From Planctomycetota bacterium (GTDB lineage: Bacteria > Planctomycetota > GCA-002687715 > DRQF01), in assembly GCA_027001995.1 (NCBI GenBank), contig JALTLO010000023.1:19156-83155 (forward strand): 64,000 bases of DNA, read 5' to 3'. Positions within the stretch are counted from its first letter, which is position 1. Each line of letters starts with the position of its first letter. The notes below the pieces were generated by a model. That model saw only the letters and a program-made list of their open reading frames with translations. It had not been told where the DNA came from and ran no database searches. This document shows positions 13,631-64,000 of this stretch, piece by piece. A program made the position numbers and the translations under genes.

Positions 13631-14017
13631 ATGCAGAGAGAACCCCTTTTGCACAGGGAAACGAGAGTGAGTGAACAGTTAGAACAACCCGAAGCCGATC
13701 AAATCGACAGTGAAACAGCCCAGGAAGAAGTGGTTGAGGAGACAAAAGAGACCTCTCCACCCAAGATTTCTGGAGCCCACGCTATTGGCAAACTTGCCGG
13801 GGCAAGCGTCGCTATTCCCACCGCGGCCATTGTTTTTTGCGTGGCTGCTATGGCTGGTGTCCCGGCATCCACAGCAATCACCCGCAGTGTATTCACCGCC
13901 ATCGGAATGTGGATCTTCGTCGGCCTCGCCTTTCGCTTCCTTTTCACCTTTGTCATTTACGACTGGCGCAAGAAGATGTCGCCCTCCCCGGCTGCCAATG
14001 AAGGAGCCAGCGAATGA
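13631..14017 (+). CDS. hypothetical small membrane protein with an acidic N-terminus and two C-terminal TM helices, in the flagellar operon
   Basis: 128 aa. Start is 16 nt after the flhA stop. Its stop overlaps the fliA start (ATGA). No recognisable family. Confidence 0.4.
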   Translation: MQREPLLHRETRVSEQLEQPEADQIDSETAQEEVVEETKETSPPKISGAHAIGKLAGASVAIPTAAIVFCVAAMAGVPASTAITRSVFTAIGMWIFVGLAFRFLFTFVIYDWRKKMSPSPAANEGASE

Positions 14018-18220: not shown

Positions 18221-20284
18221 ATGGCAGTGCCTATAGGAAGAGGCACTGAGAGGCGCAATCAAAATCTCAAGACGAACGGGGCTTACCCACCTGGTGTTCC
18301 CACCATGAACCTTTCCGCACTCTTGTCTTTGAGGGAAAAGGGCATCGACTTGAACAAGGTAGTTAGATTCGACATCACTTTACTTCTTTGCCTTTTGATA
18401 GGGGCCATGATTTTCTTCATGCCACTATTGGGTGGTGGCTTTGTTGCTGACGACTTCACGATTTTGCGCTTTGTCACTTATGGCGACCCAGCCCATGCAG
18501 ATACTGATCCGAAAGATTCAACTGCCGTATTGCGCTATTTCTTCGAGCCGACGAACCAGGAAACCCATGTCTATCGGCCGTTAGTGCTCCTATCCTTTCG
18601 TTTGAGCTACCAGCAATTCGGAACCAGCTCTTCTGGGTTCTTGATGACCAACCTACTGATTCATTTACTCAACGCCGTGATTGTGGCTCGTTTGCTACGA
18701 TTCCTCCCTCCAAACTCTCGAGCCATTTGGTTAGCGGCTATTGCCGTGTTCTTGTTTCATCCTTTGCAGGTGCAAGTTGTAACTTGGTCTGCAGCACGAT
18801 CAGACAGCCTCTCATTCTTCTTCGGATCACTGGCTCTTTTGCTCAAATTCTCACATCCCAAGCGCGCCCTTCTCCCGGCACTCCTCATACTTCTCGCTTT
18901 ACTTTGCAAGGAGTCCGCCATCGTTTGGGCAGCGGCGCTGATTTTTTTCGAAATTCCCACGAGAACCGGCGACAAGACAGATCGCTCTTGGGACATCGGT
19001 GCCAGGGGCAGGCGCCTCCTGCCACTCGCATCTGTTGTCAGCATCTATTTCATTTTGCGCTCGCAAGCGTTGAACTCCCTTGATACCCCGGCACTCTACA
19101 ATGGACTAGAACTGTCCGAACATCTGTCGCAAAAATCACTCAAGGGCATAGGGAAGTCCCTACTCTTTATTTTCTGCCCTGTCGTACACGAGGTCATCCC
19201 CAACAGCGCTGTCAATGCCCTTATTCACTTGACTCAACTCATCGCAAACATCACTCTCTTCCTAATCGGCGGTCGCGAACTCATGAGACGCGGGCTACGG
19301 GAAGCCCTCCTTTGGAGTGTACTACTCTTTTCAGCACTCCTCTCCTTGATAGTCGGAAACCCGTGCCCAGACTTCTTGCTTTCTCGGGCCTTCTATACCT
19401 CTATGCTTCTTGTCGCATGCCTCATAACTTTGGCCTACGGGGCCAAACCCCGAACAACGATGTTCCTGTCGCTGGCTTTGATCGCCACGTTCTTGCCAAG
19501 TTCCATCGTAATCAGGGACTGTTGGGTCAGAAATGGTGCCGAGGTGAAGGGCTATCAAGAGTCTTTGGATAACATCTTGGACGACTTGCCAACAACAAAT
19601 GTCAACAGGATCGTTGTACTCAATCCCATTGGGCCAGTTTCTTCAAGAGGCGGATTCGTGTTGGGCCAACCGCCTCCTACGGCATTCATGAGGCCATTTA
19701 TGAAGATGGACCTTTCATTCGTTTCTCTTGGACGGCAAGGCTCAGACAAAACGTACCCAGCAAGAGAGTTCGCCGCTGCATTTCCTCGCTCCGGTGAGAA
19801 ATCTATCGTGGTTCGCCTACGCTTAGACAGAGAGAAAAATGCGAATTTCTTCGAACTCGTACACGCCGATACCATCGTTGGCAAAGAACAATGGAAGGTT
19901 GAGCCGGTCGAACCCGGCTGGAATCAAGTGACTGTGATTAACATAGACCACGCAGAATTAGAAACTTTTGAATTCACAGTTCGGCACCAAGAAGAAGAGG
20001 GGCTTCGTTTCGTCGTCGCAATTCTCGATGGGTCTGGTCTCCTTTTCGAACTACCAGGGATCGTTGGAGAGATTCGCGTCGACGGTGACACTCAAACAAC
20101 ATCTTTGCAGGTGCCACCGATTCCTAAGAAGTACTTTGAGGGCATTCCCCCAGCCATTTCTCTTGGGTGGAGTGTAGAAGTTTCAAGGAAAGACGGAACA
20201 ATCATCGGAAGGAGCCCCACAAGTCCGATTCAAGTGAGGTTCGTGACTGAGGAATCCAAGGCAAAAGCAAATTCTGCCAAATGA
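18221..20284 (+). CDS. GT-C-like polytopic membrane protein of the TMTC/DUF1736 type (PMT_2-related) with a non-TPR C-terminal soluble domain
   Basis: N-terminal about 400 aa has more than 10 TM segments with the DUF1736-like motif LFHPLQVQVVTWSAARSDSL (compare HP..vE.V.W...R.D.L) and an early YRPL segment. A C-terminal domain of about 270 aa has no TPR repeats. Confidence 0.5.
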   Translation: MAVPIGRGTERRNQNLKTNGAYPPGVPTMNLSALLSLREKGIDLNKVVRFDITLLLCLLIGAMIFFMPLLGGGFVADDFTILRFVTYGDPAHADTDPKDSTAVLRYFFEPTNQETHVYRPLVLLSFRLSYQQFGTSSSGFLMTNLLIHLLNAVIVARLLRFLPPNSRAIWLAAIAVFLFHPLQVQVVTWSAARSDSLSFFFGSLALLLKFSHPKRALLPALLILLALLCKESAIVWAAALIFFEIPTRTGDKTDRSWDIGARGRRLLPLASVVSIYFILRSQALNSLDTPALYNGLELSEHLSQKSLKGIGKSLLFIFCPVVHEVIPNSAVNALIHLTQLIANITLFLIGGRELMRRGLREALLWSVLLFSALLSLIVGNPCPDFLLSRAFYTSMLLVACLITLAYGAKPRTTMFLSLALIATFLPSSIVIRDCWVRNGAEVKGYQESLDNILDDLPTTNVNRIVVLNPIGPVSSRGGFVLGQPPPTAFMRPFMKMDLSFVSLGRQGSDKTYPAREFAAAFPRSGEKSIVVRLRLDREKNANFFELVHADTIVGKEQWKVEPVEPGWNQVTVINIDHAELETFEFTVRHQEEEGLRFVVAILDGSGLLFELPGIVGEIRVDGDTQTTSLQVPPIPKKYFEGIPPAISLGWSVEVSRKDGTIIGRSPTSPIQVRFVTEESKAKANSAK

Positions 20285-20841: not shown

Positions 20842-21168
20842 TGGAAGCTCCTTAAAAACCTGGACTTACGTCCGATACCTGGGTTTCCGACAAACCCTTC
20901 CATTCCATTTCCTTTGTTCTCTTAGGCAGAATCTGAAAGTCCTTAACCAAGAAAAGGAAAAAAACATGGGGCAATATAGGCAGAGGAAAGTGATTTTACT
21001 GTGCAGATGAGGCCATTCCGGTTTCAATAGGGCCTATCACCCAGCCTGAGTCGTGAACAAAGGGTCCGATGGCAAGAACATGATGTGTTCTTTGGCAAAG
21101 CCCCCAAATTGAACGACCAGCCCATTGCCAGTCAAGATGAACTCGAATTGCAGCAGGATGGAGAAGTT

Positions 21169-22179
21169 ATGTCTCGTATTTCGCTCATGGCCATGATCCT
21201 CATTGCCAGCATTGCATTGCTCGCCGCCCCCGCATCGGCCCAGCTCTTAAATCCCAGTTTCGACGCGAACGCTATTGGTACCCCTCAAGACTATGTCTTC
21301 AATGCCAATGGCGGTGGGTCCTTCATCTCATCGTTTGATCTTTCCATGCCCACCAACGGGACCCGCTTTGCGGTCATGACCGGTGGTAACAATGGCCCAG
21401 CAACTCCCCACTCGAATCCAGGCGGGGTTGGCACGGATGCCAGTGGCGCCGTCACCTTAAGTCAGACATTTTTCTTCGCTAGCCCGACGGACACCAACAT
21501 TGAGTTCGATTGCATCCTCTTGGGCAACGACATGGGTAATGCTGATTTCCTTGAGGTGAGCATCTCTGCCGGAGGCCAATCTTTGAATCTGGTTCACCTG
21601 GACACCATTGCTGATGTTGGACCTGGAGGTGCAAGCACCGTAACCGGCCTCATGACGTCCCCACTCACACATGTGTCTGTTGATGTGGGCGCTGCCTTCG
21701 TCGGAGCCAACATTGCCACGCCATTCACATTGACCATCCATTTGGGCAATTCCGGAGACAATTTGATTGCCCCACGAGGTCACATCGACAACTTCACCTT
21801 CTCCCCCGGAACTCCATTCGCCACCAACTCAGTGGGCTTTATCCCCATGGGTGGCTTCGTTCGCTTGAGCATTCGGACGGCTTTGCCATTCACGGAATAC
21901 TACACCTTGGTCAGCCATGACACCGCAGGGCCTAAGGGTATGGGGGCCTTTGGTGGTCTCTACTTGGACAATCAAACTATCGGCATTCTCACCTTGCCAG
22001 TGGGAACTCCCGGCCTCCACGACATCACCAATGCAGCCGGAGAGTTTGATGCCAATGTTTTCCTTGGCATTGCTCCAATTGGTTTTGTCTTTGACTACAT
22101 GCTGGCAGCTTTCTTGCCGGGAGGGATCGAAATTACCCCTGTGAAGCGAGGTGCTTGGGGTCAACAAGAAGACTTCTAA
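21169..22179 (+). CDS. hypothetical secreted protein
   Basis: Signal peptide MSRISLMAMILIASIALLAAPASAQ followed by a Gly/Thr/Asn-rich beta-type sequence. No family recognised. The listed ORF start at 21085 is probably upstream of the real start. Confidence 0.45.
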   Translation: MSRISLMAMILIASIALLAAPASAQLLNPSFDANAIGTPQDYVFNANGGGSFISSFDLSMPTNGTRFAVMTGGNNGPATPHSNPGGVGTDASGAVTLSQTFFFASPTDTNIEFDCILLGNDMGNADFLEVSISAGGQSLNLVHLDTIADVGPGGASTVTGLMTSPLTHVSVDVGAAFVGANIATPFTLTIHLGNSGDNLIAPRGHIDNFTFSPGTPFATNSVGFIPMGGFVRLSIRTALPFTEYYTLVSHDTAGPKGMGAFGGLYLDNQTIGILTLPVGTPGLHDITNAAGEFDANVFLGIAPIGFVFDYMLAAFLPGGIEITPVKRGAWGQQEDF

Positions 22180-22464: not shown

Positions 22465-22550
22465 TGCCGCGAGCGAGATTCGAACTCGCACTCAGTTTAA
22501 CCTGAACTAGGCCCTCAACCTAGCGCGTCTGCCAGTTCCGCCACCGCGGC
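22465..22550 (-). tRNA. tRNA-Leu (anticodon GAG), type II with long variable arm, CCA not encoded
   Basis: The reverse complement reads GCCGCGG-TG-GCGGAACTGGCAGACGC-G-CTAGG-TTGAGGG-CCTAG-(long variable arm)-GCGAG-TTCGAAT-CTCGC-TCGCGGC-A. It has a 7-bp acceptor stem, a GTTCGAATC T-arm, and an anticodon loop TTGAGGG giving GAG. A palindrome at 22433..22459 immediately downstream on the minus strand could terminate it. Confidence 0.8.
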
Positions 22551-22615: not shown

Positions 22616-24667
22616 TCAGTAATTTTCCTCTGCTGCCAAGGTCATGTGGATCCGAAACTCCGGCCCCTCCTGCCCCACATCAATGAAAAAGTAGGAAAAG
22701 ACATCGCGAAATTGGTTGAGATTGCGATCGATTTCTCGCCGGATGGTGGCAGGATTGCGTTCTTTCTGCGTCTCCCGAAGCCACTCCTTGTATTTCAGCT
22801 CAACCCATTCCTCTTGGGGGAAATTAGGTCGAGTTTGTCGCCAACGTGACTCTAAGCGCTGCCTCTGGGCAAACTTCTCGATCTCTTCGATTTTGCTGCG
22901 ATCCTCAACCCAGGCGGTTTTCGCTTGGTCCATGTGAGAATAGAGACGCTGCACGTCAATGAACATCAAATCCTTCGTCCCAGCGGTCATATGCTCCAAT
23001 TGGTATTCGATTTGGTTCAAAAGGGGCATCCCCGGACTCGTCTTTTCACCCACGGCGATCGCTTCTTGGAACAAGCGGACCCAATTGGTGACCACCAAAT
23101 AGTCGTCAATTATGGCGAATCCTGGATCATTATTTTCTGCGTCCTCCAAGAAGCTCTTCTTACTGACCCGCCAATAGTCAAAAGGTCCAGAGTCAAAGTA
23201 ATCGAATGGCTGCTTTAGGCCATCATCGATTTCTTGGATAAAAGCCCGGACGGCACTGTGATCGGCTATACGCAAAATGCAAGCAAAGCCAGATCCACCT
23301 CCTCCAGATCCTTCGGAGCGGATTTTTTTGAAGAACAAAAGCCCCATGCCTGGGTCGAAGAGGGTTCTCAGCTTGTCCACCAGAGGTTTGACGAACTCAG
23401 GGACGATGGAGCCGGGCTGTTTGTAGCGCTTAAAGCTCTCCAACTCCGCCAATCCCGCGAACAGTAACTCCCGCTGGTCTTGATCAACCATGGCTCTCTG
23501 ACCAAGAGCAAAAGAAAGGACGTCGGCGGGATGATTCCCCATGGCAGCGTAGCCAAAGACATGATGAGGCATGATGCTAAGAATACGATCGACTTGCTGG
23601 AAGACCTCATCTTCATCCAAGACATCACAGTCGCTAAAAACGTCTCCCCGAGAGCGAGGCTCGGCGGCAACGGCAAAGCGAAGGTCAGCTTGATCAGCAA
23701 AATCAAGCTGAACATAGGCATCCGAGCCCGAGAACATGGGAAACGCCTGCTCAAAAGAACGGGCAATAGCCCCGCCCCACATAGGAATCAAGATGTTCTT
23801 GTGTAAGCCCACTTTCTCCAGCAAGTATGATTTTCGCGCCATGACGTTCAAGGCGCTGCTCGACTTCGAGCTCCAAACCCAACGTGGGTCCATGCGTCTT
23901 TCCGGAATGACCGGCAAGCCAACAGTGCGGGCCTTCTTTACCAGACGAGACAATGCCGGGATGTTGCTGCCAACTAAGAGGACCTTTTCGACTCGAGCAA
24001 GCCCCAACTCTTGCTCACCCCCGTTGCCGTCGGGAAACACCAAGCGGACGCCCCAACCGAAATGCTCGATCTCCGAAACACCCAGGTCATCTTCGACGAA
24101 ACCACACAAGGACGGGGTGATGAGAGCGTTTGCGGCGATCAACGCCATGTCAGAGTGAGGTTGAATGGCCGCCACCATGGTGAAAGGATCACCTGCTTTC
24201 TTCGGTGCATACCCGGACACCACAATTTGATGCCCCGACAAGTCTCCAAGAGCACTGAGATCAAAAGGCAGCTCAGCGTCAATATCACGAAGAAAAGCAA
24301 AAGCCTCTCGCATCTTGGGGATAAGCTCGGTCTCAGCAACCAAGTCGCTTGCTAAGAACTGAGAGAAATTCTTGCTGCGATTGAGATGACTAATGAAGGG
24401 GCGATCCTCGATCCCCTTAATCAGCGTCGGCACGTCATTGGAATAGATGACCAAGTCTGCATCTTCGGTAACGAAAACCAAAAGGTCATCATATTCTTCG
24501 GCAAATGGATCATAGAGATTCGACTTGATCCAAATCAAAGCCATGGCGAGCAATAGGCCAAGAATAACGGCGATAATGACGCGCTTTCTGGATGCTCCGA
24601 ACTTTTCTAATAGGTCATTCATATTCGTTTGAGATTTTCTTTTCTGCACCAACCGAGCCGAAGACAC
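22616..24667 (-). CDS. hypothetical membrane-anchored protein (single N-terminal TM, large extracytoplasmic domain)
   Basis: 683 aa. TM at about residues 30-50. No recognisable catalytic motifs. Confidence 0.45.
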   Translation of the reverse strand: MSSARLVQKRKSQTNMNDLLEKFGASRKRVIIAVILGLLLAMALIWIKSNLYDPFAEEYDDLLVFVTEDADLVIYSNDVPTLIKGIEDRPFISHLNRSKNFSQFLASDLVAETELIPKMREAFAFLRDIDAELPFDLSALGDLSGHQIVVSGYAPKKAGDPFTMVAAIQPHSDMALIAANALITPSLCGFVEDDLGVSEIEHFGWGVRLVFPDGNGGEQELGLARVEKVLLVGSNIPALSRLVKKARTVGLPVIPERRMDPRWVWSSKSSSALNVMARKSYLLEKVGLHKNILIPMWGGAIARSFEQAFPMFSGSDAYVQLDFADQADLRFAVAAEPRSRGDVFSDCDVLDEDEVFQQVDRILSIMPHHVFGYAAMGNHPADVLSFALGQRAMVDQDQRELLFAGLAELESFKRYKQPGSIVPEFVKPLVDKLRTLFDPGMGLLFFKKIRSEGSGGGGSGFACILRIADHSAVRAFIQEIDDGLKQPFDYFDSGPFDYWRVSKKSFLEDAENNDPGFAIIDDYLVVTNWVRLFQEAIAVGEKTSPGMPLLNQIEYQLEHMTAGTKDLMFIDVQRLYSHMDQAKTAWVEDRSKIEEIEKFAQRQRLESRWRQTRPNFPQEEWVELKYKEWLRETQKERNPATIRREIDRNLNQFRDVFSYFFIDVGQEGPEFRIHMTLAAEENY

Positions 24668-34665: not shown

Positions 34666-36396
34666 TTGGCTATGATGTCCGCGCGTACCCATCGCGCCCA
34701 GTCCAACGTGAGAAAAAGAATGAATAGAAGAATCGCAAGCACCATTTTCTTGGTTGTCTTCGTGCTTTGCCTGAGTCACATGACCAAGGCACAAGTGACC
34801 ACGGCTGTGACCATCAATGGAGCAGCACCGGGAGACCTACTCGGAGACTCTGTCGGTTGTGCTGGAGATGTCAATGGCGATGGGTTCGACGACATCATCG
34901 TTGGAAGCCCCCGAAACGACGCAAACGGCACAAACGCCGGGCAGATTCAAGTGGTATCAGGCTTCGACAACACCATTCTATTCACCATCAATGGGCCAGC
35001 AGCCAATGACAATTTTGGCAAAGCCGTCGCTGGCGCTGGTGATGTAAACGGAGACGGATTCGCCGACTTCGTAGTCGGTGCCCCCTTTCATGACACAGGA
35101 GGCGCCAATTCCGGAAGGCTCTTTGTCTACTCGGGAGTCGATGGCAGCCAGCTCTACTTCTTCTCCGGCGACAACTTCAACGATCAGATGGGGGCCAGTG
35201 TAAGTGGAGCAGGTGATGTGAATGGGGATGGCTTTGACGACATCATTGCAGGAGCCCCGGGAGACGACAATAACGGGACGAGCTCCGGGTCGTCACGGGT
35301 TTTCTCCGGGGCAGACGGCTCCATCCTCTACACCTTCGACGGTGACACCGCCCACGACACCATGGGATTCTCGGTGGGCCAAGCCGGTGACACCAACGGA
35401 GATGGTTTTGACGATGTCATCGTCGGCATCTGGTCGGACGACGACAACGGCACCAATTCAGGAAGTGCTCGGATCTTCTCCGGGGCGGATGGCTCCATCC
35501 TACTGATGATCAATGGTGACAACATCGGCGATGAATTGGGACGATCTGTTGCTGGGGCTGGCGATGTGAATCGCGACGGCTTTGATGATGTCATCGTCGG
35601 AGCTCCCAACGATGACAACTTGGGCAACAATTCAGGCAGTGCCCGGGTGATTTCTGGTGCCGATGGCGCTGTTCTTTACGTCTTCAACGGAACCTCCTCT
35701 GTCGACCTCTTCGGGACCAGCGTTGGGGGGGCTGGGGACTTCAATGGAGACGGTTATGCCGATCTCGTGGTTGGAATGCCCTTGGAAGACAATGGTGCAG
35801 CCAACACTGGCACAGTTCAGGTATTCTCTGGGGCCGACGGATCCATCCTTGCCCAAGTCGATGGATCTAACAGCGGCGACTTCTTAGGAGCTGCCACTGC
35901 CAGCGCAGGAGACTTCAATGGCGATGGGTTCGGCGACATTGTGATTGGCAACTCTCTCAATGACAGCAATGGTGCCGACTCTGGACAAGCGCGGGTTTTT
36001 CTGTCCCCAACCCTCCCTGTCCTCAACTACGTCACCCAAAGCAGCGAGATTCATGGTCTGAGAATGGAATGGTTCCCCACTGGAGGAAACAACCAAGCCC
36101 TCTCGGGCAACCTTCTTATTAGCCAAGGAACCCCTGGTGGCCTTGGTGAATTGGGAATTAGCCTAGCGCCCGCAGATATCGTCTTGTTCGGTTTTCTTCC
36201 TCTTTTGATCGCCATTGACTCCACCAACGTCATCTCCGATCAGTTCTTCGGATTCGATGCCAACGGTGAATTGACTTTGGCCAATCTAACGAGACAAAGT
36301 CCCTTCTTGGCTGGCACACTCATTTACATTCAGAGCTACGAGATCAGCCCGATCTTCAAGAGCTCCAACGGCCTTCGATCACTGTTGACTATGTAG
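34666..36396 (+). CDS. FG-GAP (integrin-alpha beta-propeller) repeat protein, secreted
   Basis: Signal peptide plus seven tandem ~57-aa repeats, each with the calcium-binding loop GDVNGDGFDDIIVGAP. Confidence 0.8.
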   Translation: MAMMSARTHRAQSNVRKRMNRRIASTIFLVVFVLCLSHMTKAQVTTAVTINGAAPGDLLGDSVGCAGDVNGDGFDDIIVGSPRNDANGTNAGQIQVVSGFDNTILFTINGPAANDNFGKAVAGAGDVNGDGFADFVVGAPFHDTGGANSGRLFVYSGVDGSQLYFFSGDNFNDQMGASVSGAGDVNGDGFDDIIAGAPGDDNNGTSSGSSRVFSGADGSILYTFDGDTAHDTMGFSVGQAGDTNGDGFDDVIVGIWSDDDNGTNSGSARIFSGADGSILLMINGDNIGDELGRSVAGAGDVNRDGFDDVIVGAPNDDNLGNNSGSARVISGADGAVLYVFNGTSSVDLFGTSVGGAGDFNGDGYADLVVGMPLEDNGAANTGTVQVFSGADGSILAQVDGSNSGDFLGAATASAGDFNGDGFGDIVIGNSLNDSNGADSGQARVFLSPTLPVLNYVTQSSEIHGLRMEWFPTGGNNQALSGNLLISQGTPGGLGELGISLAPADIVLFGFLPLLIAIDSTNVISDQFFGFDANGELTLANLTRQSPFLAGTLIYIQSYEISPIFKSSNGLRSLLTM

Positions 36397-36435: not shown

Positions 36436-36472
36436 AGAGACCCCGTGTTCATATGTTGAACACGGGGTCTCT
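36436..36472. repeat. perfect 16-bp-arm inverted repeat (agagaccccgtgttca-tatgt-tgaacacggggtctct)
   Basis: Seen directly in the sequence 40 nt downstream of the FG-GAP gene stop. It has no adjacent T-tract, so it is not a textbook intrinsic terminator. Confidence 0.6.
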
Positions 36473-36900
36473 TAGCTCAGCAACCTGGCCTCTCGCTCTC
36501 TCAACCAGAGTCGAGCCGAGGCAAATGGGTTTTTGGGTCCGTCGATTCGGCCCGGCGCGAGGAGGCCGAATCGGGGACCACTCAAAGAAACGGCTTCAGC
36601 TAGAGTCCGGGGTCAGAGAAAGCAAAAAGATGCGAACTTCCGGCAGCTGTCACGAGGAAGGAAAGTGCCCTCCCCATGGACTAAAGTTGGTTTGGTGCTG
36701 CATTTAGCTAGATCAAGAAATGAGACCCCAGATCTCCTTCTGTCTCGGAAAATTCCTGATTCCTTCAGACATAGGAATTCAACGAGTGCTGCACCCACAG
36801 TTGAGCCTCTGAGTTTGCCCAAACGCAAACAAAGAAGGCCACGTCCAAGAGGTGGAATGGGTGGTGGTGATAGGGGCTTTGACCCCCGGGGGAGCGTTCC

Positions 36901-39900
36901 TTGGCGGAACCAAGACGATTTTTGTTCACGGGGGGCGGCACCGGCGGACATGTGGTCCCAAACGTGGCCGTTGTACGTGCCATCAAAGACAAAGAAACGG
37001 AAAGCCAGTTTCTTTACCTGGGAACGAACCGAGGCCCTGAACGAGAAATCGTTGAGAAAGCCAAGGTCACATTCAAAGGAATTGAAGCCCGACCCTTTGC
37101 CTCTCCTCGCAACCCCCGGGTGTTTATTCGTTTCCTTTGGGCTCTTGCCTGGGGGTTCTTGCAATCCATTTTTCATATCATTCGTTTTCGCCCCCATGTT
37201 GTCATTGCCACCGGTGGTTACGTCTCCGTCCCACCTGTGCTAGCCGCTGCGATTCTCCGACGCCCAATTTTCCTACACGAACAAAACGCCCGTCCTGGCA
37301 AAGCCAACATTTTCTTAGCCCGCTTTGCCACCAGTATTGGAGTTAGTTTCGAAGAGACTCTACCTTGGTTTCCGGCGACAAAGACCATTCTCACTGGCTA
37401 CCCTGTACGCCAAAGAATTGCCGCTGGCAATGGGGCCAATGCCCGAGAACGATTGCGCATTGCCAAGGACGCCAAGGTTGCCTTTGTTTTGGGTGGGTCC
37501 ATGGGGGCTCGGTCCATCAATCGGGCCACCGTCGAAGGACTCTCTCGGCTCTTGGATGACGACAACATCACTATCATTCACAGCACTGGCTTGACGGCGA
37601 CCGGCTACTACCACGCATGGAATGACACCAACGACAAACTCAACTCCGTGCCTGTGGCAGAAGACAATCGTAGCCGCTATATCTTGCGCCGCTACTTTGA
37701 TCAGATCGAAGACGCTTATGCCGCCAGCGACTTGGTCGTAGCACGAGCTGGTGCTGGGGTCCTGATGGAATTAGCCACCCTTGGCAAACCCGCCCTTCTC
37801 ATTCCGAAGAGTGATGGCGTCGACAACCATCAACTCGTCAACGCCCTCACCATGAAGAATCATGGTTCGGCGGAAGTCATGTTTGAAGAAATCTACGAGT
37901 CAAAGGAAGGGCCTATCACCCGGGTTCACGGGGACCAGTTAGCGCGCAAAGTTAACGAGTTACTCTACGACCCCGAACGTCTCAGTGCCATGTCGCGCTC
38001 AGCCCAGAACTTTGTCATTCCCAATGCCGGTATTGAGAACGCCAAGCTTGCCATCAACTTGGCCCACAAGAAACGACACTTGGTAAACACGACATCTCAA
38101 GTCTTGGTGGGCGAGTTAACGAATACCGACGGCAAGAAAGAAGAGCTTTTCTTCCCGGTGACCACCCTGGGTCATTCTGCAAGCAGCGACATTCACTTGG
38201 CCAATAAAGGACGCCGAGACCGTGCCCTGATTAGAAGAAGTGGCAACTCACGAAGGAACACCACCTACTCCATTATCCCCCGCAAAGGGCGCATAGCCGT
38301 GGATGACAAAGTGATTGATGAGATCACAACTCTCCAGGCGGGACAAACACTCAAAGTAGGCGACAACGTCTTCACCTTTAACGCCCGCATCGAATCACGA
38401 GAACAGAGCCCCCGCAGTGGCCGCGTCTTAGCAAGCGTCTTGGTGACTGGATTTGGCACTCTCTTATCACGAGTTTTCGGTTTGGGCCGGGAAGTCGTTC
38501 TGGCTTCGACGTTCGGAGCTGGTCGTGTGATGGATATTGTGGTGGCCTGCCTCACAGCCTCCAATTTATTTCGCCGAATCTTCGCTGAAAACGCTGTGGA
38601 TAGCGCCTTCTTGCCCACCTTTGTCATGCTTTACCGAGGGGGCAAAAAAAAGGAAGCGATTCGTCTCTTCCGAACCGTTCTGACAACATCCACTGGCATC
38701 ACTGTGGCTCTCGTTATCCTAGCAGCAGTGACTGTTCCATGGTGGCTACCAGTGATTGTTCCCGGATTCGCCGCCAAAGGGTTCTTGCCAGATGCCATCA
38801 AGCTAACCCGAATTATGCTGCCGTACCTAACGCTCATCACTGTTGCCAGTGTTCTTGGCGCAGTGCTAAAAGCATTTGGTCGATTCGCTGCTCCAGCTTA
38901 TGCCTCAGTCATGTACTCGATTGGCATCATGTGCGGTGCCTTCCTTTATCAAACCATGGGCATTGCTGGCATGGGTATTGGCCTCCTCTTGGGTGGTTTG
39001 GGCCAAGTCTTGATGCACCTGCCACCTTTGCTGTCAAAGAGTTTTCGCCGTCGTACGGGTTTGGAGTTTGCTCCGGCTTTGGCCGTCAATGAACCCGGCA
39101 TGCGCAAGGTGCGTTCAACGGCGCCAAAGATCGTCGCCGATGTCACGATCACCAAGGTGGGCTCCGTCGTTGATTTAGCCATTGTTTCGACCTTGGCGAC
39201 AGGCTCTGTCTCGGCCCTCTATTTTGGTTTGCTTTTGTTCCAGCTGCCTTTTGCTTTGATTTCCCAATCAATCAACACGGTGGCACTCAAAGAATACGCC
39301 GAGAGTTTTGCTTCTCGTGATCAAGACGCTTGCCGTCGTATCGTGACCACCGGCATCAACTGGAATTTGTTTCTCCTCCTGCCCACGACGGCATTCCTCA
39401 TCATTTTGGCCCACCCAACCGTCAACCTCTTACTCAACTACGGTGTCTTCCGTGTGCAAGACACCAAGTCGGTGTCCATGGCTCTTTCTTGCTATGCCAT
39501 TGGTTTGGTGGGCTGGGGCCTGCAAGGTTTGATGGGTCGTTTCTATGCCGCCCGCCTCGAGTTGGGTCAAGCAGTCATCATCAACATGTGTGCTATCGCC
39601 CTCAATATCGTGCTGTCGGTCGGCTTGGTGTTCTTGGGCTTTGGTATTGCTGGAGTTGCCATCGGCACTTCGATCTCCTTCTTGGCCAATGGTGCTTTCC
39701 GGGTTTGGCACATGCGCAAGAATATGCGGGCCAGCGGAGGTGGATTTGAGTTTGCCGACATTCTGCCTTCCGCCCAAAGAGCCACATTGGCCACGTTGGG
39801 CGCAGCGGCCATTTGCTTCTTGACCTTGCAAACCGTCCAAGGTTTCGATGCCCTCCCCACCCTACTCTCAAGGTTCTTGGTGTTTTCCATACCCGCCATT

Positions 39901-40800
39901 GTGGGGACCTTTTCCTATCTCATTTTGGCTTGGGCCATTCGCTCACCAGAGATGGACGACGTCATTGCCAGAATTCGGCGACAGATTCCTCAATCGCCAC
40001 CACCGGAACAGACAGAAGTACCACTCAATGTTTATTGTCTTCGCCCCCAGGAACTACTCGATGTAGCAATCAAAAACCCCAAGAGTGTCAGGGACGCAAA
40101 CCTCACCGGTCGCGTGAGGGGTTTCTTGGGTCGAGAAAACTGGAAACAACGAAACATCGGCGTCAAGTTGGTTGGCTTGCTAAAAATTCGCTCGCTGAAG
40201 TATAGCTTGGTGAATATCGTGCGATCGAGGAAACCAGCTCCCCTCATACACCGCCTTTTGCGGGGCGACTTTGAACACCCCGGCTTCGTGCGCAGAAACG
40301 CCGTACACAGTTTGCGCCAACTGGAGTCATTGGATTCCGATGTAGAACAGGCCTTGGTAGATGGTCTGAGTGATCCCTACTTCGAAGTCAGGACCGCTTC
40401 TTGCCAAGCCATTGCCTCTTACTCGAAAGAACTCAGCCCTGCGGTACGACGCTTATGCCAATGGCGTCTCAAACAGCTGGTGGCTGAGAAGAACTTCGAA
40501 GTCGCTCGAATGGCGGTTAAAGCTCTCGGCTCCGTGAGTTTGACGGCATCCGTTACCGAAACCCTTAAGACACTCCACTACCACGCCAATTGGCAAGTGC
40601 GCCATGCGGTGGTGCGGGCTTACTACGATCTTTACAAGAGGGGCATCGTGGAGGATCGCGAGTTCTTGACACAACAACTCGATGACATTCTCATCACCTG
40701 TGATTCGTTCACCCCAACATTTGAACTGAAAGAGTCAGTGCGCGACGCCCGTTCCCGCTTGATGAATGAAAACGACCGCGACACGGAGGAAACCAAGTGA
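36901..40800 (+). CDS. murG-murJ: multidomain fusion: MurG (UDP-GlcNAc:lipid I GlcNAc transferase), FHA domain, MurJ (lipid II flippase) and C-terminal HEAT/ARM repeats
   Basis: Single uninterrupted 1299-codon frame with a TTG start. Residues 1-390 are a full MurG (TGGGTGGHVVPN, TGGYVSVPPVLAA, HEQNARPG, GGSMGARSIN, ARAGAG). Residues ~400-490 form an FHA-like domain (TLGHSASSDIHL...GRIAVDDKVI...GDNVFTF). Residues ~500-1040 are a full MurJ (LSRVFGLGREVVLASTFGAGRVMD...LFRRIFAENAVDSAFLPTFV plus 14 TM segments). Residues ~1050-1299 are HEAT repeats (DPYFEVRTASCQAIA, NWQVRHAVVRAY). The stop overlaps the mraY start by 4 nt. Confidence 0.8.
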   Translation: MAEPRRFLFTGGGTGGHVVPNVAVVRAIKDKETESQFLYLGTNRGPEREIVEKAKVTFKGIEARPFASPRNPRVFIRFLWALAWGFLQSIFHIIRFRPHVVIATGGYVSVPPVLAAAILRRPIFLHEQNARPGKANIFLARFATSIGVSFEETLPWFPATKTILTGYPVRQRIAAGNGANARERLRIAKDAKVAFVLGGSMGARSINRATVEGLSRLLDDDNITIIHSTGLTATGYYHAWNDTNDKLNSVPVAEDNRSRYILRRYFDQIEDAYAASDLVVARAGAGVLMELATLGKPALLIPKSDGVDNHQLVNALTMKNHGSAEVMFEEIYESKEGPITRVHGDQLARKVNELLYDPERLSAMSRSAQNFVIPNAGIENAKLAINLAHKKRHLVNTTSQVLVGELTNTDGKKEELFFPVTTLGHSASSDIHLANKGRRDRALIRRSGNSRRNTTYSIIPRKGRIAVDDKVIDEITTLQAGQTLKVGDNVFTFNARIESREQSPRSGRVLASVLVTGFGTLLSRVFGLGREVVLASTFGAGRVMDIVVACLTASNLFRRIFAENAVDSAFLPTFVMLYRGGKKKEAIRLFRTVLTTSTGITVALVILAAVTVPWWLPVIVPGFAAKGFLPDAIKLTRIMLPYLTLITVASVLGAVLKAFGRFAAPAYASVMYSIGIMCGAFLYQTMGIAGMGIGLLLGGLGQVLMHLPPLLSKSFRRRTGLEFAPALAVNEPGMRKVRSTAPKIVADVTITKVGSVVDLAIVSTLATGSVSALYFGLLLFQLPFALISQSINTVALKEYAESFASRDQDACRRIVTTGINWNLFLLLPTTAFLIILAHPTVNLLLNYGVFRVQDTKSVSMALSCYAIGLVGWGLQGLMGRFYAARLELGQAVIINMCAIALNIVLSVGLVFLGFGIAGVAIGTSISFLANGAFRVWHMRKNMRASGGGFEFADILPSAQRATLATLGAAAICFLTLQTVQGFDALPTLLSRFLVFSIPAIVGTFSYLILAWAIRSPEMDDVIARIRRQIPQSPPPEQTEVPLNVYCLRPQELLDVAIKNPKSVRDANLTGRVRGFLGRENWKQRNIGVKLVGLLKIRSLKYSLVNIVRSRKPAPLIHRLLRGDFEHPGFVRRNAVHSLRQLESLDSDVEQALVDGLSDPYFEVRTASCQAIASYSKELSPAVRRLCQWRLKQLVAEKNFEVARMAVKALGSVSLTASVTETLKTLHYHANWQVRHAVVRAYYDLYKRGIVEDREFLTQQLDDILITCDSFTPTFELKESVRDARSRLMNENDRDTEETK

Positions 40801-41900
40801 TTCCCTGGATCTACGACCTCTTGGTTTCTCCTATGGGCCTGTGGCACATCGGAGGAATCCCAGTACTCTTGTCTTCTGTTGGAGCTTTCATTCTTTCTTT
40901 CTTGTTTGTCTTCTTAGCTGGGAGAAGCACGGCCGCATTCCTCTACCGTAAAGGCATTCGCGATCGTGTGCGCAACTACGACGCTTTCTTCGCCAAAAGC
41001 AAAACAGGCACCCCCACCATGGGAGGCGTCTTGATTGTCGGAGCCATTGCCGTAAGTGGCTTTATGTTTTGCGACCTCACCAGTGGCACCACGGGTTTAC
41101 TCATGCTAACTGTGCTCTGGTTTGGTGGCATTGGTGCCGTTGATGATCTTCTGAAAGTCCGCCATGGCTCCAGCGACGGTGGGCTCTCTCGAGGCGTTAA
41201 GATCTTCCTGCAAATTGGATTCGCAATCTTCTTTGCTGGGGTCTTGGTGTCGAAAGGTTGTTCGCCGTTTCCACCTGAGATTCGTACCACTCTCTTATTC
41301 CCCTTCCCCAGTGGAGCCATGATCGACTTGGGGCTTTTTTATCCCATTTTTGTCGCCTTCGTTGTTGTTGCAGTAGCCAATGCCATCAACTTTGCTGATG
41401 GGCTTGATGGCTTAGCTGTCTTGCCCAGCGGTTTGACAGCCGCAGTTTTTGCTTTCTTCGCTTATCTTTCTTGGAATGCCACATCGGCCAAAGTGTTTGA
41501 ATTCACCGCTACCGAGAACATCGTAGATGTGGTGGTTTTTGCTTCTGGAATCGTCGGGGCCTGTTTCGGATTTCTTTGGTTCAACGGCTATCCGGCTCAA
41601 ATGTTTATGGGCGATACCGGCTCCCAGGCATTGGGTGGAACTTTGGCGGCTGTAGCCATTCTTTCGAAGCAAGAATTGCTTTTCTTGGTGGCGGGAGGCA
41701 TCTTTGTCTTCGAGGCCTTTTCAGTTTTCCTCCAAGACTACATTGGCATTCGGCTCGTCGGGCGACGATTTTTCTTTCGGGCGCCCGCCCATCATAGCTT
41801 CCAGCACCAAGGTGTAGCGGAAACAAAGGTGGTGCTCCGCTTTTGGATTGTGTCTCTCCTGTGCGCCGTGCTCAGCGTAGCAACCCTTAAATTGCGATAG
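40797..41900 (+). CDS. mraY: phospho-N-acetylmuramoyl-pentapeptide transferase
   Basis: GTG start overlapping the upstream stop. Polytopic protein with NAINFADGLDGLA, the DDxxK-like AVDDLLK, and a C-terminal HH motif (APAHHSFQ). 367 aa. Confidence 0.9.
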   Translation: MIPWIYDLLVSPMGLWHIGGIPVLLSSVGAFILSFLFVFLAGRSTAAFLYRKGIRDRVRNYDAFFAKSKTGTPTMGGVLIVGAIAVSGFMFCDLTSGTTGLLMLTVLWFGGIGAVDDLLKVRHGSSDGGLSRGVKIFLQIGFAIFFAGVLVSKGCSPFPPEIRTTLLFPFPSGAMIDLGLFYPIFVAFVVVAVANAINFADGLDGLAVLPSGLTAAVFAFFAYLSWNATSAKVFEFTATENIVDVVVFASGIVGACFGFLWFNGYPAQMFMGDTGSQALGGTLAAVAILSKQELLFLVAGGIFVFEAFSVFLQDYIGIRLVGRRFFFRAPAHHSFQHQGVAETKVVLRFWIVSLLCAVLSVATLKLR

Positions 41901-41925: not shown

Positions 41926-42717
41926 ATGATAGATAGAGATGCCCCAGTTGCACAAACGGCGCTTGGGGGGCAAGATGATGCTATGCGAGTTAGTTTTACC
42001 GGACATGATACCGAACAGATTCAGCTTCTAGCCAAGCATGTAGGCTTGGATGTCGTAGAGGTTGAGGCGGAACCAGAAGTCATCATTACCTATGGCGGCG
42101 ACGGCACGCTTATTGGCACTGAAACCAATTACCCCGGTATCCCCAAGTTGCCCATGCGCGACCGGAAGAGTTGCGCCAAATGTCCAATTCACGAGGACGA
42201 AGCCGTCCTCAGGCGACTCTCAGAAGGTGCCCTGGAGAAGTCAGCTCTCAAGAAACTCTCAGCCACAACTCAGGGCAAAACCATCCTAGGTGTCAATGAT
42301 ATCCTCCTGCGAAATAGCGATTTGCGCAGTGCTGTCAGGTTTCAAGTCTACATCAACGACGAACCCGCCACGGACGAAATGATTGGGGATGGCATGGTGG
42401 TGGCCACCCCATTTGGCAGCTCCGCTTACTTCCGCAGCATCACCCACACCACCTTCCGGGGTGGCATTGGCCTGGCGTTCAGCAATTGCACGGAATTCCT
42501 TAACCACATGGTCCTCTTGCCGGACGATGTGGTCAGTATCAATATTATTCGTGGGCCCGCTCACCTCACGGCAGACAATACACCTAAAGTCTTAGAGGTT
42601 GCCTCGGGGGACACAATCGTTGTCAAGCGGGCGGATGAGGAAGCAGTGATATTGGGGTTAGATGGACTACGATGCCCTCTTTGCCAGTATGTGAGAGCAC
42701 CTCGGCGGCGATTCTAA
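41926..42717 (+). CDS. nadK: NAD(+) kinase
   Basis: GGDGT motif (ITYGGDGTLIG), NDILL, and the substrate-binding GDGMVVATPFGSSAYFRS (compare [22 protein letters not shown]). 263 aa. Confidence 0.7.
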   Translation: MIDRDAPVAQTALGGQDDAMRVSFTGHDTEQIQLLAKHVGLDVVEVEAEPEVIITYGGDGTLIGTETNYPGIPKLPMRDRKSCAKCPIHEDEAVLRRLSEGALEKSALKKLSATTQGKTILGVNDILLRNSDLRSAVRFQVYINDEPATDEMIGDGMVVATPFGSSAYFRSITHTTFRGGIGLAFSNCTEFLNHMVLLPDDVVSINIIRGPAHLTADNTPKVLEVASGDTIVVKRADEEAVILGLDGLRCPLCQYVRAPRRRF

Positions 42718-57660: not shown

Positions 57661-58251
57661 ATGGAATGGGACAATAAAACACTCATCATCGACAATTTTG
57701 ATTCCTTCACCTGGAACCTTGTCCATCTCTTAGAAAAAATAGGAGATGAGCCCATCGTTGTGAGAGCAGACGATCCTGATCTCTACGTCTTGTCAGAGGT
57801 GCTTCCAAGGCGCCTTATACTCTCTCCTGGACCCGGATGTCCTGCTAACGCTCACGCCAACCACAACGCAATCAAAGTGGCCTACAAGACAGTTCCCATT
57901 TTAGGGGTTTGTTTGGGACATCAATCCATCGCTCAATTCTTCGGACATACCGTCAAACGAGCCCCTACTCCAATCCACGGAAAGACATCATCGATCACAC
58001 ACCTCAATACGGATCTTTTCATGGGAATCCCATCACCCTTCATTGCTATGCGCTACCACTCTTTGGCCATTGACGCTCAGAATAAAACAAGTCCGCTCTA
58101 CGTTACAGCCTGGTGCCATATCCAAGACCAAATCATCCCCATGGCAATCAAACACCGCACACGCCCCATTGCCGGTGTTCAATTTCATCCCGAATCATTC
58201 CTGACCGAAAACGGCCGAGCAATTTTGGAGAACTTTCTCTCATGGATCTAA
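57661..58251 (+). CDS. class I glutamine amidotransferase, anthranilate/aminodeoxychorismate synthase component II
   Basis: LIIDNFDSFTWNLV, catalytic GVCLGHQ, and His-Glu at the C-terminus (QFHPES). 196 aa. Confidence 0.8.
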   Translation: MEWDNKTLIIDNFDSFTWNLVHLLEKIGDEPIVVRADDPDLYVLSEVLPRRLILSPGPGCPANAHANHNAIKVAYKTVPILGVCLGHQSIAQFFGHTVKRAPTPIHGKTSSITHLNTDLFMGIPSPFIAMRYHSLAIDAQNKTSPLYVTAWCHIQDQIIPMAIKHRTRPIAGVQFHPESFLTENGRAILENFLSWI

Positions 58252-59141
58252 ATCACGAGACCTTTCATCAACGTCTCACAAAAGCCTGCAAACAAAAGAA
58301 CTCGTATCTCTGTGTCGGAATCGATCCACGACCTGAATATCTTCCTGTAAAATGGCAAAACAAAGGCGCAACTCCTGAAACCTTGGCACAATCTTACCTT
58401 GAATTCTCCTGCATGATCATCGACCGCATTCACCACAAGATTCCTATCATCAAACCCCAAAGCGCCTTTTTCGAAGCTCTTGGATATCATGGTGTGCGTG
58501 TTCTGGAGGAACTATCTGCTTATGCACAAGAAAAAGGGCTCTTAGTTATTGGAGACCTCAAAAGAGGAGACATCGGTTCAACTGCAGCGGCTTATGCTCA
58601 AGCCGCTTTCAAACTCAATAGCAACCATAAACCACTGTTCGATGCTGTCACTGTTAACCCATACATGGGACTTGACGGTGTTCAGCCCTTTATTGCTCAA
58701 GCCAAAAAAACAAACTCCGCAATTTTTGTACTATGCAAAACGAGCAATCCCTCATCCCAAGATCTCCAAGACCTAAAGACCCATGATGATCAACCCATAT
58801 ACTCAAGAATCGCCGACCTCATTCATGAATGGAGCAATAACCAAGAAGGTCTCGTAGGCGCTGTTGTCGGGGCTACTCATCCAAAACAACTACCAGAACT
58901 CAGAAACCGAATGCCTTTGGCGTGGCTTCTTATTCCAGGAGTCGGAGCACAAGGTGGGACCTATGAAGATGCGGCAAATGGTTTTCGAAAAAACAATGGA
59001 ATGGCTCTCGTCAGTGCTTCTCGATCCATTACCTTTCCGTGGCTATCCAGTACACCTTCTGCTCCAGATAATTGGCTAGAGCAAATAGAAATGGCCGTTG
59101 ATTCCGCTAACCACCAACTCAACCATGCGCTTGACAACTGA
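58242..59141 (+). CDS. pyrF: orotidine 5'-phosphate decarboxylase, type 2
   Basis: YLCVGIDPRP, GDLKRGDIGST, and a length of about 300 aa typical of type-2 PyrF. The start was chosen at the internal Met overlapping the trpG/pabA stop. Confidence 0.7.
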   Translation: MDLNHETFHQRLTKACKQKNSYLCVGIDPRPEYLPVKWQNKGATPETLAQSYLEFSCMIIDRIHHKIPIIKPQSAFFEALGYHGVRVLEELSAYAQEKGLLVIGDLKRGDIGSTAAAYAQAAFKLNSNHKPLFDAVTVNPYMGLDGVQPFIAQAKKTNSAIFVLCKTSNPSSQDLQDLKTHDDQPIYSRIADLIHEWSNNQEGLVGAVVGATHPKQLPELRNRMPLAWLLIPGVGAQGGTYEDAANGFRKNNGMALVSASRSITFPWLSSTPSAPDNWLEQIEMAVDSANHQLNHALDN

Positions 59142-59143
59142 AA

Positions 59144-59887: not shown

Positions 59888-59891
59888 ACTG

Positions 59892-61424: not shown

Positions 61425-61435
61425 GAGAACACTTC

Positions 61436-63989: not shown

Positions 63990-64000
63990 AATCTTCGCTT

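What the first reader, a model, noticed from the sequence alone, without database searches (positions are those of the whole stretch)
36901..41900. Single 1299-aa polypeptide fusing MurG, an FHA domain, MurJ and a HEAT-repeat tail, translationally coupled to mraY
MurG makes lipid II on the cytoplasmic face and MurJ flips it across the membrane. These are normally separate proteins from separate genes. Here one uninterrupted 3.9-kb frame encodes a complete MurG, an FHA (phospho-Thr-binding) domain, a complete 14-TM MurJ and a C-terminal HEAT/ARM domain of about 250 aa, and its stop overlaps the mraY start. The topology is self-consistent: MurG, FHA and the MurJ N-terminus are cytoplasmic, and the MurJ C-terminus is cytoplasmic, so the HEAT domain is too. 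The FHA domain suggests regulation of lipid II synthesis and flipping by Ser/Thr kinase signalling. The HEAT tail suggests scaffolding of other divisome or elongasome components. Synthesis and export of lipid II would then sit in one regulated machine. I am not aware of such a fusion being described.
Basis: partly seen in the sequence, partly recalled or inferred. Interest (0 to 1): 0.85.

Follow-up and report, generated by a model that had tools for sequence, protein, structure and literature searches.

The report
Fused lipid II synthase and flippase
One 1299-residue protein in an uncultured planctomycete joins the enzyme that completes the cell-wall precursor lipid II (MurG) to the transporter that flips it across the membrane (MurJ); hundreds of uncultured bacteria carry related fusions built around a shared HEAT-repeat module that always sits just before mraY, which argues that these membrane steps work as one physical unit.

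Summary
ORF 36901-40800 (+) encodes 1299 aa with four domains: MurG (GT28), an FHA-fold domain, a full-length MurJ and a HEAT solenoid of about 250 aa. Its TGA stop overlaps the GTG start of a canonical mraY. It is not a frameshift artefact: three assemblies are identical, a sister strain has 40 substitutions and no indel, and more than 120 protein clusters at 30-79% identity share the architecture.

The interpretation needs two corrections.

1. The FHA fold is real, but none of 52 homologues keeps the phosphothreonine-pocket Arg or Asn. Kinase control is therefore unsupported.
2. The HEAT domain is not a MurJ tail. It occurs alone, as MurG-HEAT (the commonest form, many phyla) and as MurJ-MurG-HEAT. 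mraY follows it in 107 of 111 loci.

In the window type, FHA+MurJ fills the MurG-HEAT linker. MurJ therefore joined MurG-HEAT at least twice, independently.

Best reading: a HEAT-organised MraY-MurG(-MurJ) unit that makes lipid II and hands it to the flippase. I found no paper describing it, and databases label these proteins simply MurJ, MurG or glycosyltransferase. It is a new variant of a known kind (peptidoglycan enzyme chimeras).

The parts
36436..36472 (.). 16-bp palindromic hairpin after the upstream FG-GAP gene. It is terminator-like and marks the upstream boundary of the operon.
36890..36894 (+). Shine-Dalgarno-like GGGAG, 6 nt before the TTG start of the fusion gene
   Evidence: read directly from the sequence
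36901..40800 (+). Fusion gene encoding 1299 aa: MurG-FHA-MurJ-HEAT
36901..38070 (+). MurG (GT28) domain, aa 1 to about 390. The GGTGGH, HEQN, GGSxG, RAGAG..E and HQ..NA motifs are present and nearly invariant in 52 homologues.
38089..38406 (+). FHA-fold domain, aa 397 to about 502, with a degenerate phosphothreonine pocket (G424-H425, R438, K462)
38425..39966 (+). MurJ (MOP flippase) domain, aa 509-1022. It aligns with E. coli MurJ along its whole length. Equivalents of R18, R24, D39 and R52 are kept; the R270 equivalent is Leu778.
40045..40797 (+). HEAT/ARM alpha-solenoid, aa about 1049-1299, with a conserved C-terminal T(S/C)xxFxPxFxLK motif
40785..40790 (+). GGAGGA Shine-Dalgarno sequence inside the end of the fusion gene, 6 nt before the mraY GTG
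   Evidence: read directly from the sequence
40797..41900 (+). mraY, 367 aa. Its GTG start overlaps the fusion stop (GTGA). It is a canonical MraY.

Best explanation
The locus is a two-gene operon, murG-FHA-murJ-HEAT followed by mraY. It encodes all three membrane steps of peptidoglycan precursor supply: lipid I synthesis (MraY), lipid II synthesis (MurG) and lipid II flipping (MurJ).

Shown:
- The fusion is real, conserved and under purifying selection.
- Its MurG, MurJ and MraY parts keep the sequence signatures of the working enzymes.
- The HEAT module is the invariant element. It is always encoded directly before mraY and is usually fused to MurG.
- MurJ was added to MurG-HEAT in two different ways.

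Inferred:
- The HEAT solenoid is a cytoplasmic adaptor that holds MurG next to MraY.
- In the window type, FHA+MurJ was inserted into the MurG-HEAT linker. MurG then hangs from the cytoplasmic start of TM1 through a compact FHA spacer with short linkers, and HEAT follows TM14.
- TM1 flanks the membrane portal, and TM13-14 form the lipid-tail groove that opens into it. Newly made lipid II would therefore be released where MurJ takes up its substrate.
- The FHA domain acts as a phospho-independent spacer or docking module rather than as a kinase sensor.
For: Reality and conservation.

Enzyme signatures:
- MurG motifs are invariant in 52 homologues, and the domain aligns with MurG crystal-structure sequences.
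- MurJ passes the equivalog cut-off and aligns over its full length with E. coli MurJ. R18, R24, D39 and R52 equivalents are kept in 45-51 of 52 homologues.
- MraY passes its equivalog cut-off and aligns end to end with solved MraY at 1e-61.

Linkage to mraY:
- The fusion-mraY pair is conserved in Planctomycetota, Aminicenantes and Lernaella, while all other neighbours differ.
- mraY follows the HEAT ORF in 107 of 111 GTDB loci.

Architectures:
- MurG-HEAT, MurJ-MurG-HEAT, MurG-FHA-MurJ-HEAT and stand-alone HEAT before mraY are all confirmed by Pfam.
- A MurG-HEAT protein matches window aa 6-393 and 1071-1281, so FHA+MurJ occupies its 55-aa linker.
- In a MurG tree, the MurJ-MurG-HEAT type is nested inside Syntrophobacterales MurG-HEAT, and the window type forms a separate clade.
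- L014 carries murG-HEAT, mraY and murJ as neighbours.

FHA: the fold is confirmed but the pocket is degenerate.

Portal geometry: PMC9973255.
Against: - There is no experimental or structural evidence for any contact between HEAT and MraY, or between MurG and the portal. I could not model complexes.
- The equivalent of the essential E. coli MurJ R270 is Leu in the window and is never Arg in 52 type-a homologues, so the flippase site differs from the models. S. aureus MurJ shows that a triad residue can be supplied from another position in the sequence.
- MurG scores slightly under the NCBIfam equivalog cut-off (233 against 250).
- The MraY HHH motif reads HHS.
- I could not check whether these genomes also carry separate murG, murJ or mraY genes, so this may be a second, specialised set.
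- In mycobacteria, precursor synthesis and wall assembly are laterally separated (PMC7864634), so coupling is not universal.
Confidence: 0.55

Rival explanations
1. Co-expression only. The fusion and the overlap with mraY fix a 1:1 stoichiometry and co-localisation of MurG, MurJ and MraY. There is no direct substrate hand-off, and the FHA and HEAT domains are inert linkers or stabilisers.
For: Other Mur chimeras join enzymes that do not catalyse consecutive steps, and are explained by stability or expression balance (PMC10214165). No interface evidence was obtained here.
Against: Two independent MurJ captures both place MurG next to a MurJ terminus. The FHA domain (E415, F418, D430, G463, L478) and the HEAT domain (13 invariant columns) are conserved well beyond what a linker needs. 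The linkers flanking the FHA domain are short.
Confidence: 0.25
2. A specialised paralogous system. The operon is a second MraY/MurG/MurJ set that serves a particular process or a modified precursor, alongside housekeeping genes elsewhere in the genome.
For: The HEAT-associated MurG forms a distinct, long-branched clade with an insertion in the C-domain relative to solved MurG, and it scores under the equivalog cut-off. The MurJ domain lacks the R270 equivalent. The operon lies outside any dcw cluster: no Mur ligase, SEDS or PBP gene appeared among the roughly 50 window ORFs for which Pfam domains were obtained.
Against: MraY and MurJ pass their equivalog thresholds. All catalytic motifs of MurG are invariant. 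The module occurs once per locus across many phyla, with no second copy in any fetched flank.
Confidence: 0.15
3. Kinase-regulated machine. The FHA domain binds a phosphothreonine on a partner or on the protein itself and switches lipid II synthesis or flipping, as FhaA does with MviN in mycobacteria.
For: The FHA fold is confirmed. There is a precedent for FHA binding to the MurJ homologue MviN (PDB 3oun; PMC11898655).
Against: The pocket residues are not conserved: 0 of 52 Arg, 7 of 52 Ser and 0 of 52 Asn at the canonical columns. No kinase or phosphatase gene was seen among the window ORFs scanned. 12 of 47 members match best to the phospho-independent YscD-type FHA family.
Confidence: 0.05

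Closest known systems
Natural Mur chimeras (MurE-MurF, MurC-Ddl, MurC-MurB, MurG-MurC, MurD-FtsW, MraY-MurG; PMC10214165)
   Same: Peptidoglycan-pathway enzymes encoded as one polypeptide. They are taken as evidence for multi-enzyme complexes and balanced expression.
   Different: None of the listed chimeras contains MurJ, an FHA domain or a HEAT domain. That survey excluded unidentified species, which is where all carriers found here sit.
Mycobacterial MviN (MurJ with a pseudokinase domain) regulated by the FHA protein FhaA (PMC11898655; PDB 3oun)
   Same: A MurJ flippase functionally tied to an FHA domain on the cytoplasmic side, and a long multi-domain MurJ.
   Different: In mycobacteria the FHA domain acts in trans and binds a phosphothreonine. 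Here it is in cis, lies N-terminal to TM1, and lacks the pocket residues. There is no pseudokinase domain.
Degenerate cytoplasmic FHA domains that precede a transmembrane segment (T3SS YscD, Pfam Yop-YscD_cpl; T7SS EssC/YukB)
   Same: An FHA fold directly before a membrane span. 12 of 47 family members match Yop-YscD_cpl, and YukB gives a weak hit.
   Different: These belong to unrelated secretion machines. Similarity is at the fold or clan level only. That these domains act without phosphothreonine is from my own knowledge.
Canonical separate MurG, MurJ and MraY (E. coli, T. africanus, A. aeolicus)
   Same: Each part aligns over its full length with the solved proteins, and the key motifs are kept.
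   Different: MurG and MurJ are covalently joined. The MurG has a C-domain insertion and an appended HEAT partner. The MurJ lacks the TM8 arginine. The gene order murG then mraY lies outside a dcw cluster.

Membership tests
MurG (GT28 UDP-GlcNAc:lipid I transferase) | Two Rossmann-like GT-B halves (Pfam Glyco_transf_28 plus Glyco_tran_28_C) | tested here: met
   4e-34 and 3e-24, both above the Pfam cut-offs. Aligns with PDB MurG sequences 3s2u, 7d1i and 1f0k.
MurG (GT28 UDP-GlcNAc:lipid I transferase) | G-loop GGTGGH, HEQN, GGSxG, and the donor-binding E and HQ motifs | tested here: met
   All are present in the window and 50-52 of 52 conserved in homologues. The list of motifs is from my own knowledge of MurG structures.
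MurG (GT28 UDP-GlcNAc:lipid I transferase) | NCBIfam equivalog score (TIGR01133) | tested here: not met
   233 bits against a cut-off of 250, a narrow miss. The domain carries an insertion relative to solved MurG.
MurJ (MOP-superfamily lipid II flippase) | Full-length match to the MurJ models (14-TM core) | tested here: met
   Pfam 5e-79. TIGR01695 gives 269 bits against a cut-off of 236, model positions 2-505 of 506. Aligns with E. coli MurJ along its length.
MurJ (MOP-superfamily lipid II flippase) | Essential cavity arginines R18, R24 and R270 (E. coli numbering; PMC9973255) | tested here: inconclusive
   R18 and R24 equivalents (R524, R530) are kept. The R270 equivalent is L778, and 0 of 52 homologues have Arg there. 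S. aureus MurJ supplies one triad residue from a different sequence position.
MurJ (MOP-superfamily lipid II flippase) | Lipid II flipping activity | not testable with these tools
   Needs complementation or an in vitro flipping assay.
FHA domain | Beta-sandwich FHA fold | tested here: met
   The model has pLDDT 91.9 and its top 50 Foldseek hits are all FHA domains. The family profile hits EmbR at 6e-7 and Ki-67 at 1.5e-5.
FHA domain | Phosphothreonine-binding residues (Arg of GR, Ser of SxxH, Asn of NG) | tested here: not met
   0 of 52 Arg, 7 of 52 Ser and 0 of 52 Asn at the aligned columns. The window has H425, R438 and K462.
FHA domain | Pfam FHA (PF00498) match on the window sequence | tested here: not met
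   No FHA-clan hit on the isolated linker at E up to 10 or up to 1. 2 of 47 relatives hit FHA and 12 of 47 hit Yop-YscD_cpl.
HEAT/ARM alpha-solenoid | Tandem helical-hairpin repeats | tested here: met
   HEAT_2 at 3e-12 and HEAT at 5.5e-8 on the isolated tail. The model has pLDDT 91 with 15 helices. Best Foldseek matches are alphaRep, PP2A-A and designed ARM proteins.
MraY (phospho-MurNAc-pentapeptide translocase) | Equivalog score and end-to-end match to solved MraY | tested here: met
   TIGR00445 gives 261 bits against a cut-off of 192. PDB MraY sequences match at 1e-58 to 1e-61. The HHH motif reads HHS.

The most novel reading that the evidence does not exclude
A previously undescribed HEAT-repeat adaptor assembles MraY and MurG, and in some lineages MurJ, into one lipid II synthesis-and-export complex across a large part of the bacterial tree: Acidobacteriota, Desulfobacterota, Myxococcota, Gemmatimonadota, Planctomycetota, Chrysiogenota, Latescibacterota and others. 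The two independent covalent captures of MurJ are natural evidence that lipid II passes directly from MurG into the MurJ portal.
Probability: 0.35. Interest if true: 0.8.

Novelty: new variant of a known kind. Interest (0 to 1): 0.68.

Why it matters
- **Open question.** How lipid II reaches its flippase, and whether MraY, MurG and MurJ form a physical complex, is unresolved. The identity and necessity of the flippase is still debated; a 2025 paper reports that B. subtilis MurJ and Amj are not essential for growth (title and abstract listed).
- **Comparative evidence.** Two independent natural fusions of MurJ to MurG support the view that MurJ handles the MurG product directly.
- **Structural opportunity.** The fusions offer a single-chain protein of about 145 kDa, large enough for cryo-EM without fiducials, in which the hand-off geometry could be seen.
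- **New component.** The HEAT module tied to mraY is a candidate new part of the membrane stage of cell-wall synthesis in many poorly studied phyla.

Tried and rejected
- **Frameshift or assembly artefact.** Rejected.
- **Pfam FHA on the window linker alone.** It found nothing, so I needed a family profile and a structure model instead.
- **The search for related loci with the HEAT alignment.** It failed because no stretch was conserved enough. I replaced it with a hand-made degenerate DNA pattern.
- **Foldseek against afdb50.** The library was unavailable.
- **Search for cultured carriers.** All named hits for the three architectures are MAGs. A Desulfosoma sp. MAG (L053) is the nearest to a cultured genus.
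- **RNA elements.** Rfam found only one tRNA in the window and nothing in the 500-nt leader. The promoter scan was uninformative.
- **A compensating conserved basic residue in the MurJ domain.** No clear candidate emerged.
- **Specific function for the HEAT domain from fold matches.** Only generic solenoids were returned.
- **Second murG, murJ or mraY copy.** I could not test for one in the same genome, because only 10 kb on either side of a hit can be fetched.
Full report
**1. What is in the sequence**

The window holds an uninterrupted ORF at 36901..40800 on the + strand, 1299 aa with a TTG start. GGGAG lies 6 nt upstream of the start. The N-terminus already contains the MurG G-loop at residues 10-17, so the start cannot lie much further downstream.

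The TGA stop (40798-40800) overlaps GTG 40797, the start of a 367-aa ORF that ends at 41900. GGAGGA at 40785-40790 sits 6 nt before that GTG. One public gene caller starts this gene at ATG 40833 instead, but that codon has no Shine-Dalgarno sequence. I therefore accept the overlapping start. Translational coupling is an inference from this arrangement.

A 16-bp palindromic hairpin at 36436-36472 separates the operon from the upstream FG-GAP gene.

**2. Domains**

- Pfam finds Glyco_transf_28 (aa 7-147), Glyco_tran_28_C (194-368), MurJ (534-975, 5e-79) and HEAT_2/HEAT (1151-1261).
- The NCBIfam MurJ equivalog covers aa 509-1022, almost its whole model, and scores above its cut-off. The MurG equivalog falls just short, at 233 against 250 bits.
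- The downstream gene passes the mraY equivalog and aligns end to end with solved MraY proteins at 1e-61.
- The MurG part aligns with crystal-structure MurG sequences, and the MurJ part aligns with E. coli MurJ along its length.

The 130-residue stretch between MurG and MurJ gives no Pfam hit on its own. A 47-sequence alignment of this stretch from homologues (A2) does hit FHA domains of known structure: EmbR at 6e-7, Ki-67 at 1.5e-5 and KIF1B at 1.5e-4. 12 of its 47 members match the FHA-clan family Yop-YscD_cpl. An AlphaFold model has pLDDT 91.9 and is all-beta, and its 50 best Foldseek matches in the PDB are all FHA domains. The FHA fold is therefore real.

The C-terminal 274 residues model as a 15-helix solenoid with pLDDT 91. 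Its closest structures are alphaRep, PP2A-A and designed armadillo proteins.

**3. Not an artefact**

The 5 kb covering both genes is identical in three public assemblies. A sister strain (P0121) differs by 40 substitutions spread over all domains, with no indel and the same length.

More than 120 protein clusters of 1250-1350 aa share the same domain set at 30-79% identity. They are labelled Planctomycetota, Aminicenantes/Acidobacteriota, Candidatus Lernaella or simply bacterium. In a 52-sequence alignment the MurG catalytic motifs are invariant or nearly so.

**4. The FHA domain is not a phosphothreonine reader**

I mapped the family onto EmbR, whose pocket residues I recall as R312, S326 and N348. 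The printed alignment fits that numbering. Across the 52 homologues:

- The Arg column holds N, T, S, H or D, and never Arg.
- The Ser column holds Ser in 7 of 52.
- The Asn column holds R or K, and never Asn.

The conserved positions are instead E415, F418, D430, G463 and L478. No Ser/Thr kinase or PP2C gene appeared among the roughly 50 window ORFs for which Pfam domains were obtained. The kinase-signalling idea is therefore unsupported.

The nearest functional analogues are FHA domains that sit directly before a transmembrane segment, as in YscD and EssC. That these act without phosphothreonine is from my own knowledge. The domain is flanked by short linkers: MurG ends near aa 390, the FHA domain spans 397-502, and TM1 starts near 508.

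**5. The HEAT module is the conserved core, not a MurJ tail**

I scanned one genome per GTDB species with a degenerate DNA pattern for two HEAT-tail motifs. I classified the loci with tblastn of the window's domains plus a stop-to-stop ORF check:

| ORF type | Loci |
|---|---|
| MurG-HEAT, about 670-800 aa | 50 |
| Window type, MurG-(FHA)-MurJ-HEAT | 34 |
| 5'-truncated MurJ-HEAT | 10 |
| MurJ-MurG-HEAT, about 1200 aa | 6 |
| HEAT only (mostly truncated) | 19 |

The remaining locus (L060) had no detectable HEAT hit in the tblastn step.

- MurG-HEAT occurs in Syntrophobacterales, Myxococcota, Gemmatimonadota, Thermoanaerobaculia, Vicinamibacterales, Holophagales, Latescibacterota, Calditrichota, Zixibacteria and Eisenbacteria.
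- The window type occurs in Planctomycetota, Aminicenantes, Chrysiogenales and others.
- Pfam confirms all three fused architectures.
- In L063 (CSSED10-310) and L045 (Fermentibacteraceae) a stand-alone HEAT protein sits directly before mraY with no murG nearby.
- mraY follows the HEAT ORF on the same strand in 107 of 111 loci with an intact 3' end.
- In Planctomycetota, Aminicenantes and Lernaella loci the fusion-mraY pair, 1-3 nt apart, is the only conserved neighbourhood.
- L014 has murG-HEAT, mraY and murJ in a row.

A 697-aa MurG-HEAT protein aligns to window aa 6-393 (39% identity, 1e-71) and 1071-1281 (39%, 8e-31). Its 55-aa linker corresponds to the 678 residues that hold FHA+MurJ in the window.

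In a neighbour-joining tree of MurG domains, the MurJ-MurG-HEAT proteins nest inside Syntrophobacterales MurG-HEAT. The window type forms its own clade, with one outlier. This is a rough tree with a single outgroup. The two different domain orders alone already show at least two independent MurJ fusions.

Family size:
- 706 MurG-HEAT clusters at E<=1e-30.
- About 48 MurJ-MurG-HEAT clusters.
- 317 representatives at 50% identity reach E<=1e-30 with the HEAT profile. Among the 150 best listed, some are giant generic HEAT-repeat proteins, and the single-stretch matches fall into length classes that fit the four architectures.

**6. How it most likely works**

Established knowledge: MraY makes lipid I, MurG adds GlcNAc to give lipid II on the cytoplasmic face, and MurJ flips it. 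In MurJ, TMs 1, 2, 7 and 8 enclose the cavity. [quoted passage not shown]

In the window type MurG hangs from the start of TM1 and HEAT follows TM14. In the other fusion MurG follows TM14. Both designs therefore tether MurG to a helix next to the portal or groove.

I infer three things:
- The fusion releases lipid II where MurJ takes it up.
- HEAT, the ancestral partner, holds MurG to MraY.
- The FHA domain is a rigid, phospho-independent spacer or docking piece.

None of these contacts has been shown.

**7. Caveats**

- The essential E. coli R270 aligns to Leu778, and none of the 52 type-a proteins has Arg there. The MurJ-MurG-HEAT type keeps it. S. aureus MurJ builds the cationic triad from a different sequence position, so this may be compensated, but I found no clear candidate.
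- MurG narrowly misses its equivalog cut-off and carries an insertion.
- The MraY HHH motif reads HHS.
- I could not test whether the carriers also have separate murG, murJ or mraY genes. No other peptidoglycan gene (Mur ligase, SEDS, PBP) appeared among the window ORFs scanned.
- In cultured Planctopirus limnophila, murG and murJ are separate genes.
- In mycobacteria, precursor synthesis and wall assembly are laterally partitioned.

**8. Comparison with what is known, and novelty**

Peptidoglycan enzyme chimeras are a known kind. The survey in PMC10214165 lists MurE-MurF, MurC-Ddl, MurC-MurB, MurG-MurC, MurD-FtsW and MraY-MurG, but nothing with MurJ, and it excluded unidentified species. An FHA-MurJ link exists in trans, and dependent on phosphorylation, in mycobacteria (FhaA and MviN).

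Six full-text searches found no description of a MurG-MurJ fusion or of a HEAT domain tied to MurG or MraY. Databases carry these proteins under generic names.

I rate this as a new variant of a known kind, with interest 0.68. The parts are familiar. The covalent synthase-flippase link, its independent recurrence and the HEAT-mraY module are not, and they make the MurG-to-MurJ hand-off directly testable.

Noticed in passing
L010, L024, L036, L069, L090, L109 (for example L024:596-4192:-): A second fusion in the opposite order, MurJ-MurG-HEAT of about 1200 aa without an FHA domain, in Syntrophobacteria/Desulfobacterota and some Acidobacteriota MAGs. It forms about 48 protein clusters and keeps the MurJ R270 equivalent.
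   Followed up: yes
L063:1930-2736 and L045:6893-7759: A stand-alone HEAT protein of 268-288 aa directly before mraY with no murG nearby. This suggests that the HEAT-MraY link is the most basic one.
   Followed up: partly
window 34666-36396; L063:118-1914: An FG-GAP repeat protein lies directly upstream of the HEAT-containing gene both in the window and in a distant phylum (CSSED10-310). It is absent at that position in L004. This may be coincidence.
   Followed up: no
window 39232-39234 (Leu778 of the fusion): The MurJ TM8 arginine that is essential in E. coli (R270) and T. africanus (R255) is Leu here, and is never Arg in 52 homologues of this architecture.
   Followed up: partly
window 41788-41796 (MraY aa 331-333): The conserved MraY HHH motif reads HHS in this protein.
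   Followed up: no
window 58000-64000: GC content drops from about 0.52 to 0.42-0.44. The region holds a bacillithiol-type gene set: BshC at 59892-61424, a PIG-L deacetylase at 61373-62176 and a GT1/GT4 glycosyltransferase at 62173-63348. It also holds an OMP decarboxylase-family gene and a methyltransferase.
   Followed up: no
window 7871-14772: Flagellar export genes (fliO, fliP, fliR, flhB, flhA) followed by a sigma-70-family factor, in a planctomycete-affiliated MAG.
   Followed up: no
window 18221-20284, 21085-22179, 22616-24667(-): Three large ORFs (687, 364 and 683 aa) have no Pfam match at E<=1e-5. A tRNA lies at 22465-22550 on the minus strand.
   Followed up: no
window 41926-42717; L004:15157-15891: A short NAD-kinase-like gene follows mraY in the two planctomycete loci but not in the Aminicenantes or Lernaella loci.
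   Followed up: no
L011 and L015 (Myxococcota): The MraY downstream of MurG-HEAT matches in two pieces about 270 nt apart. This suggests an insertion of about 90 aa in a loop.
   Followed up: no
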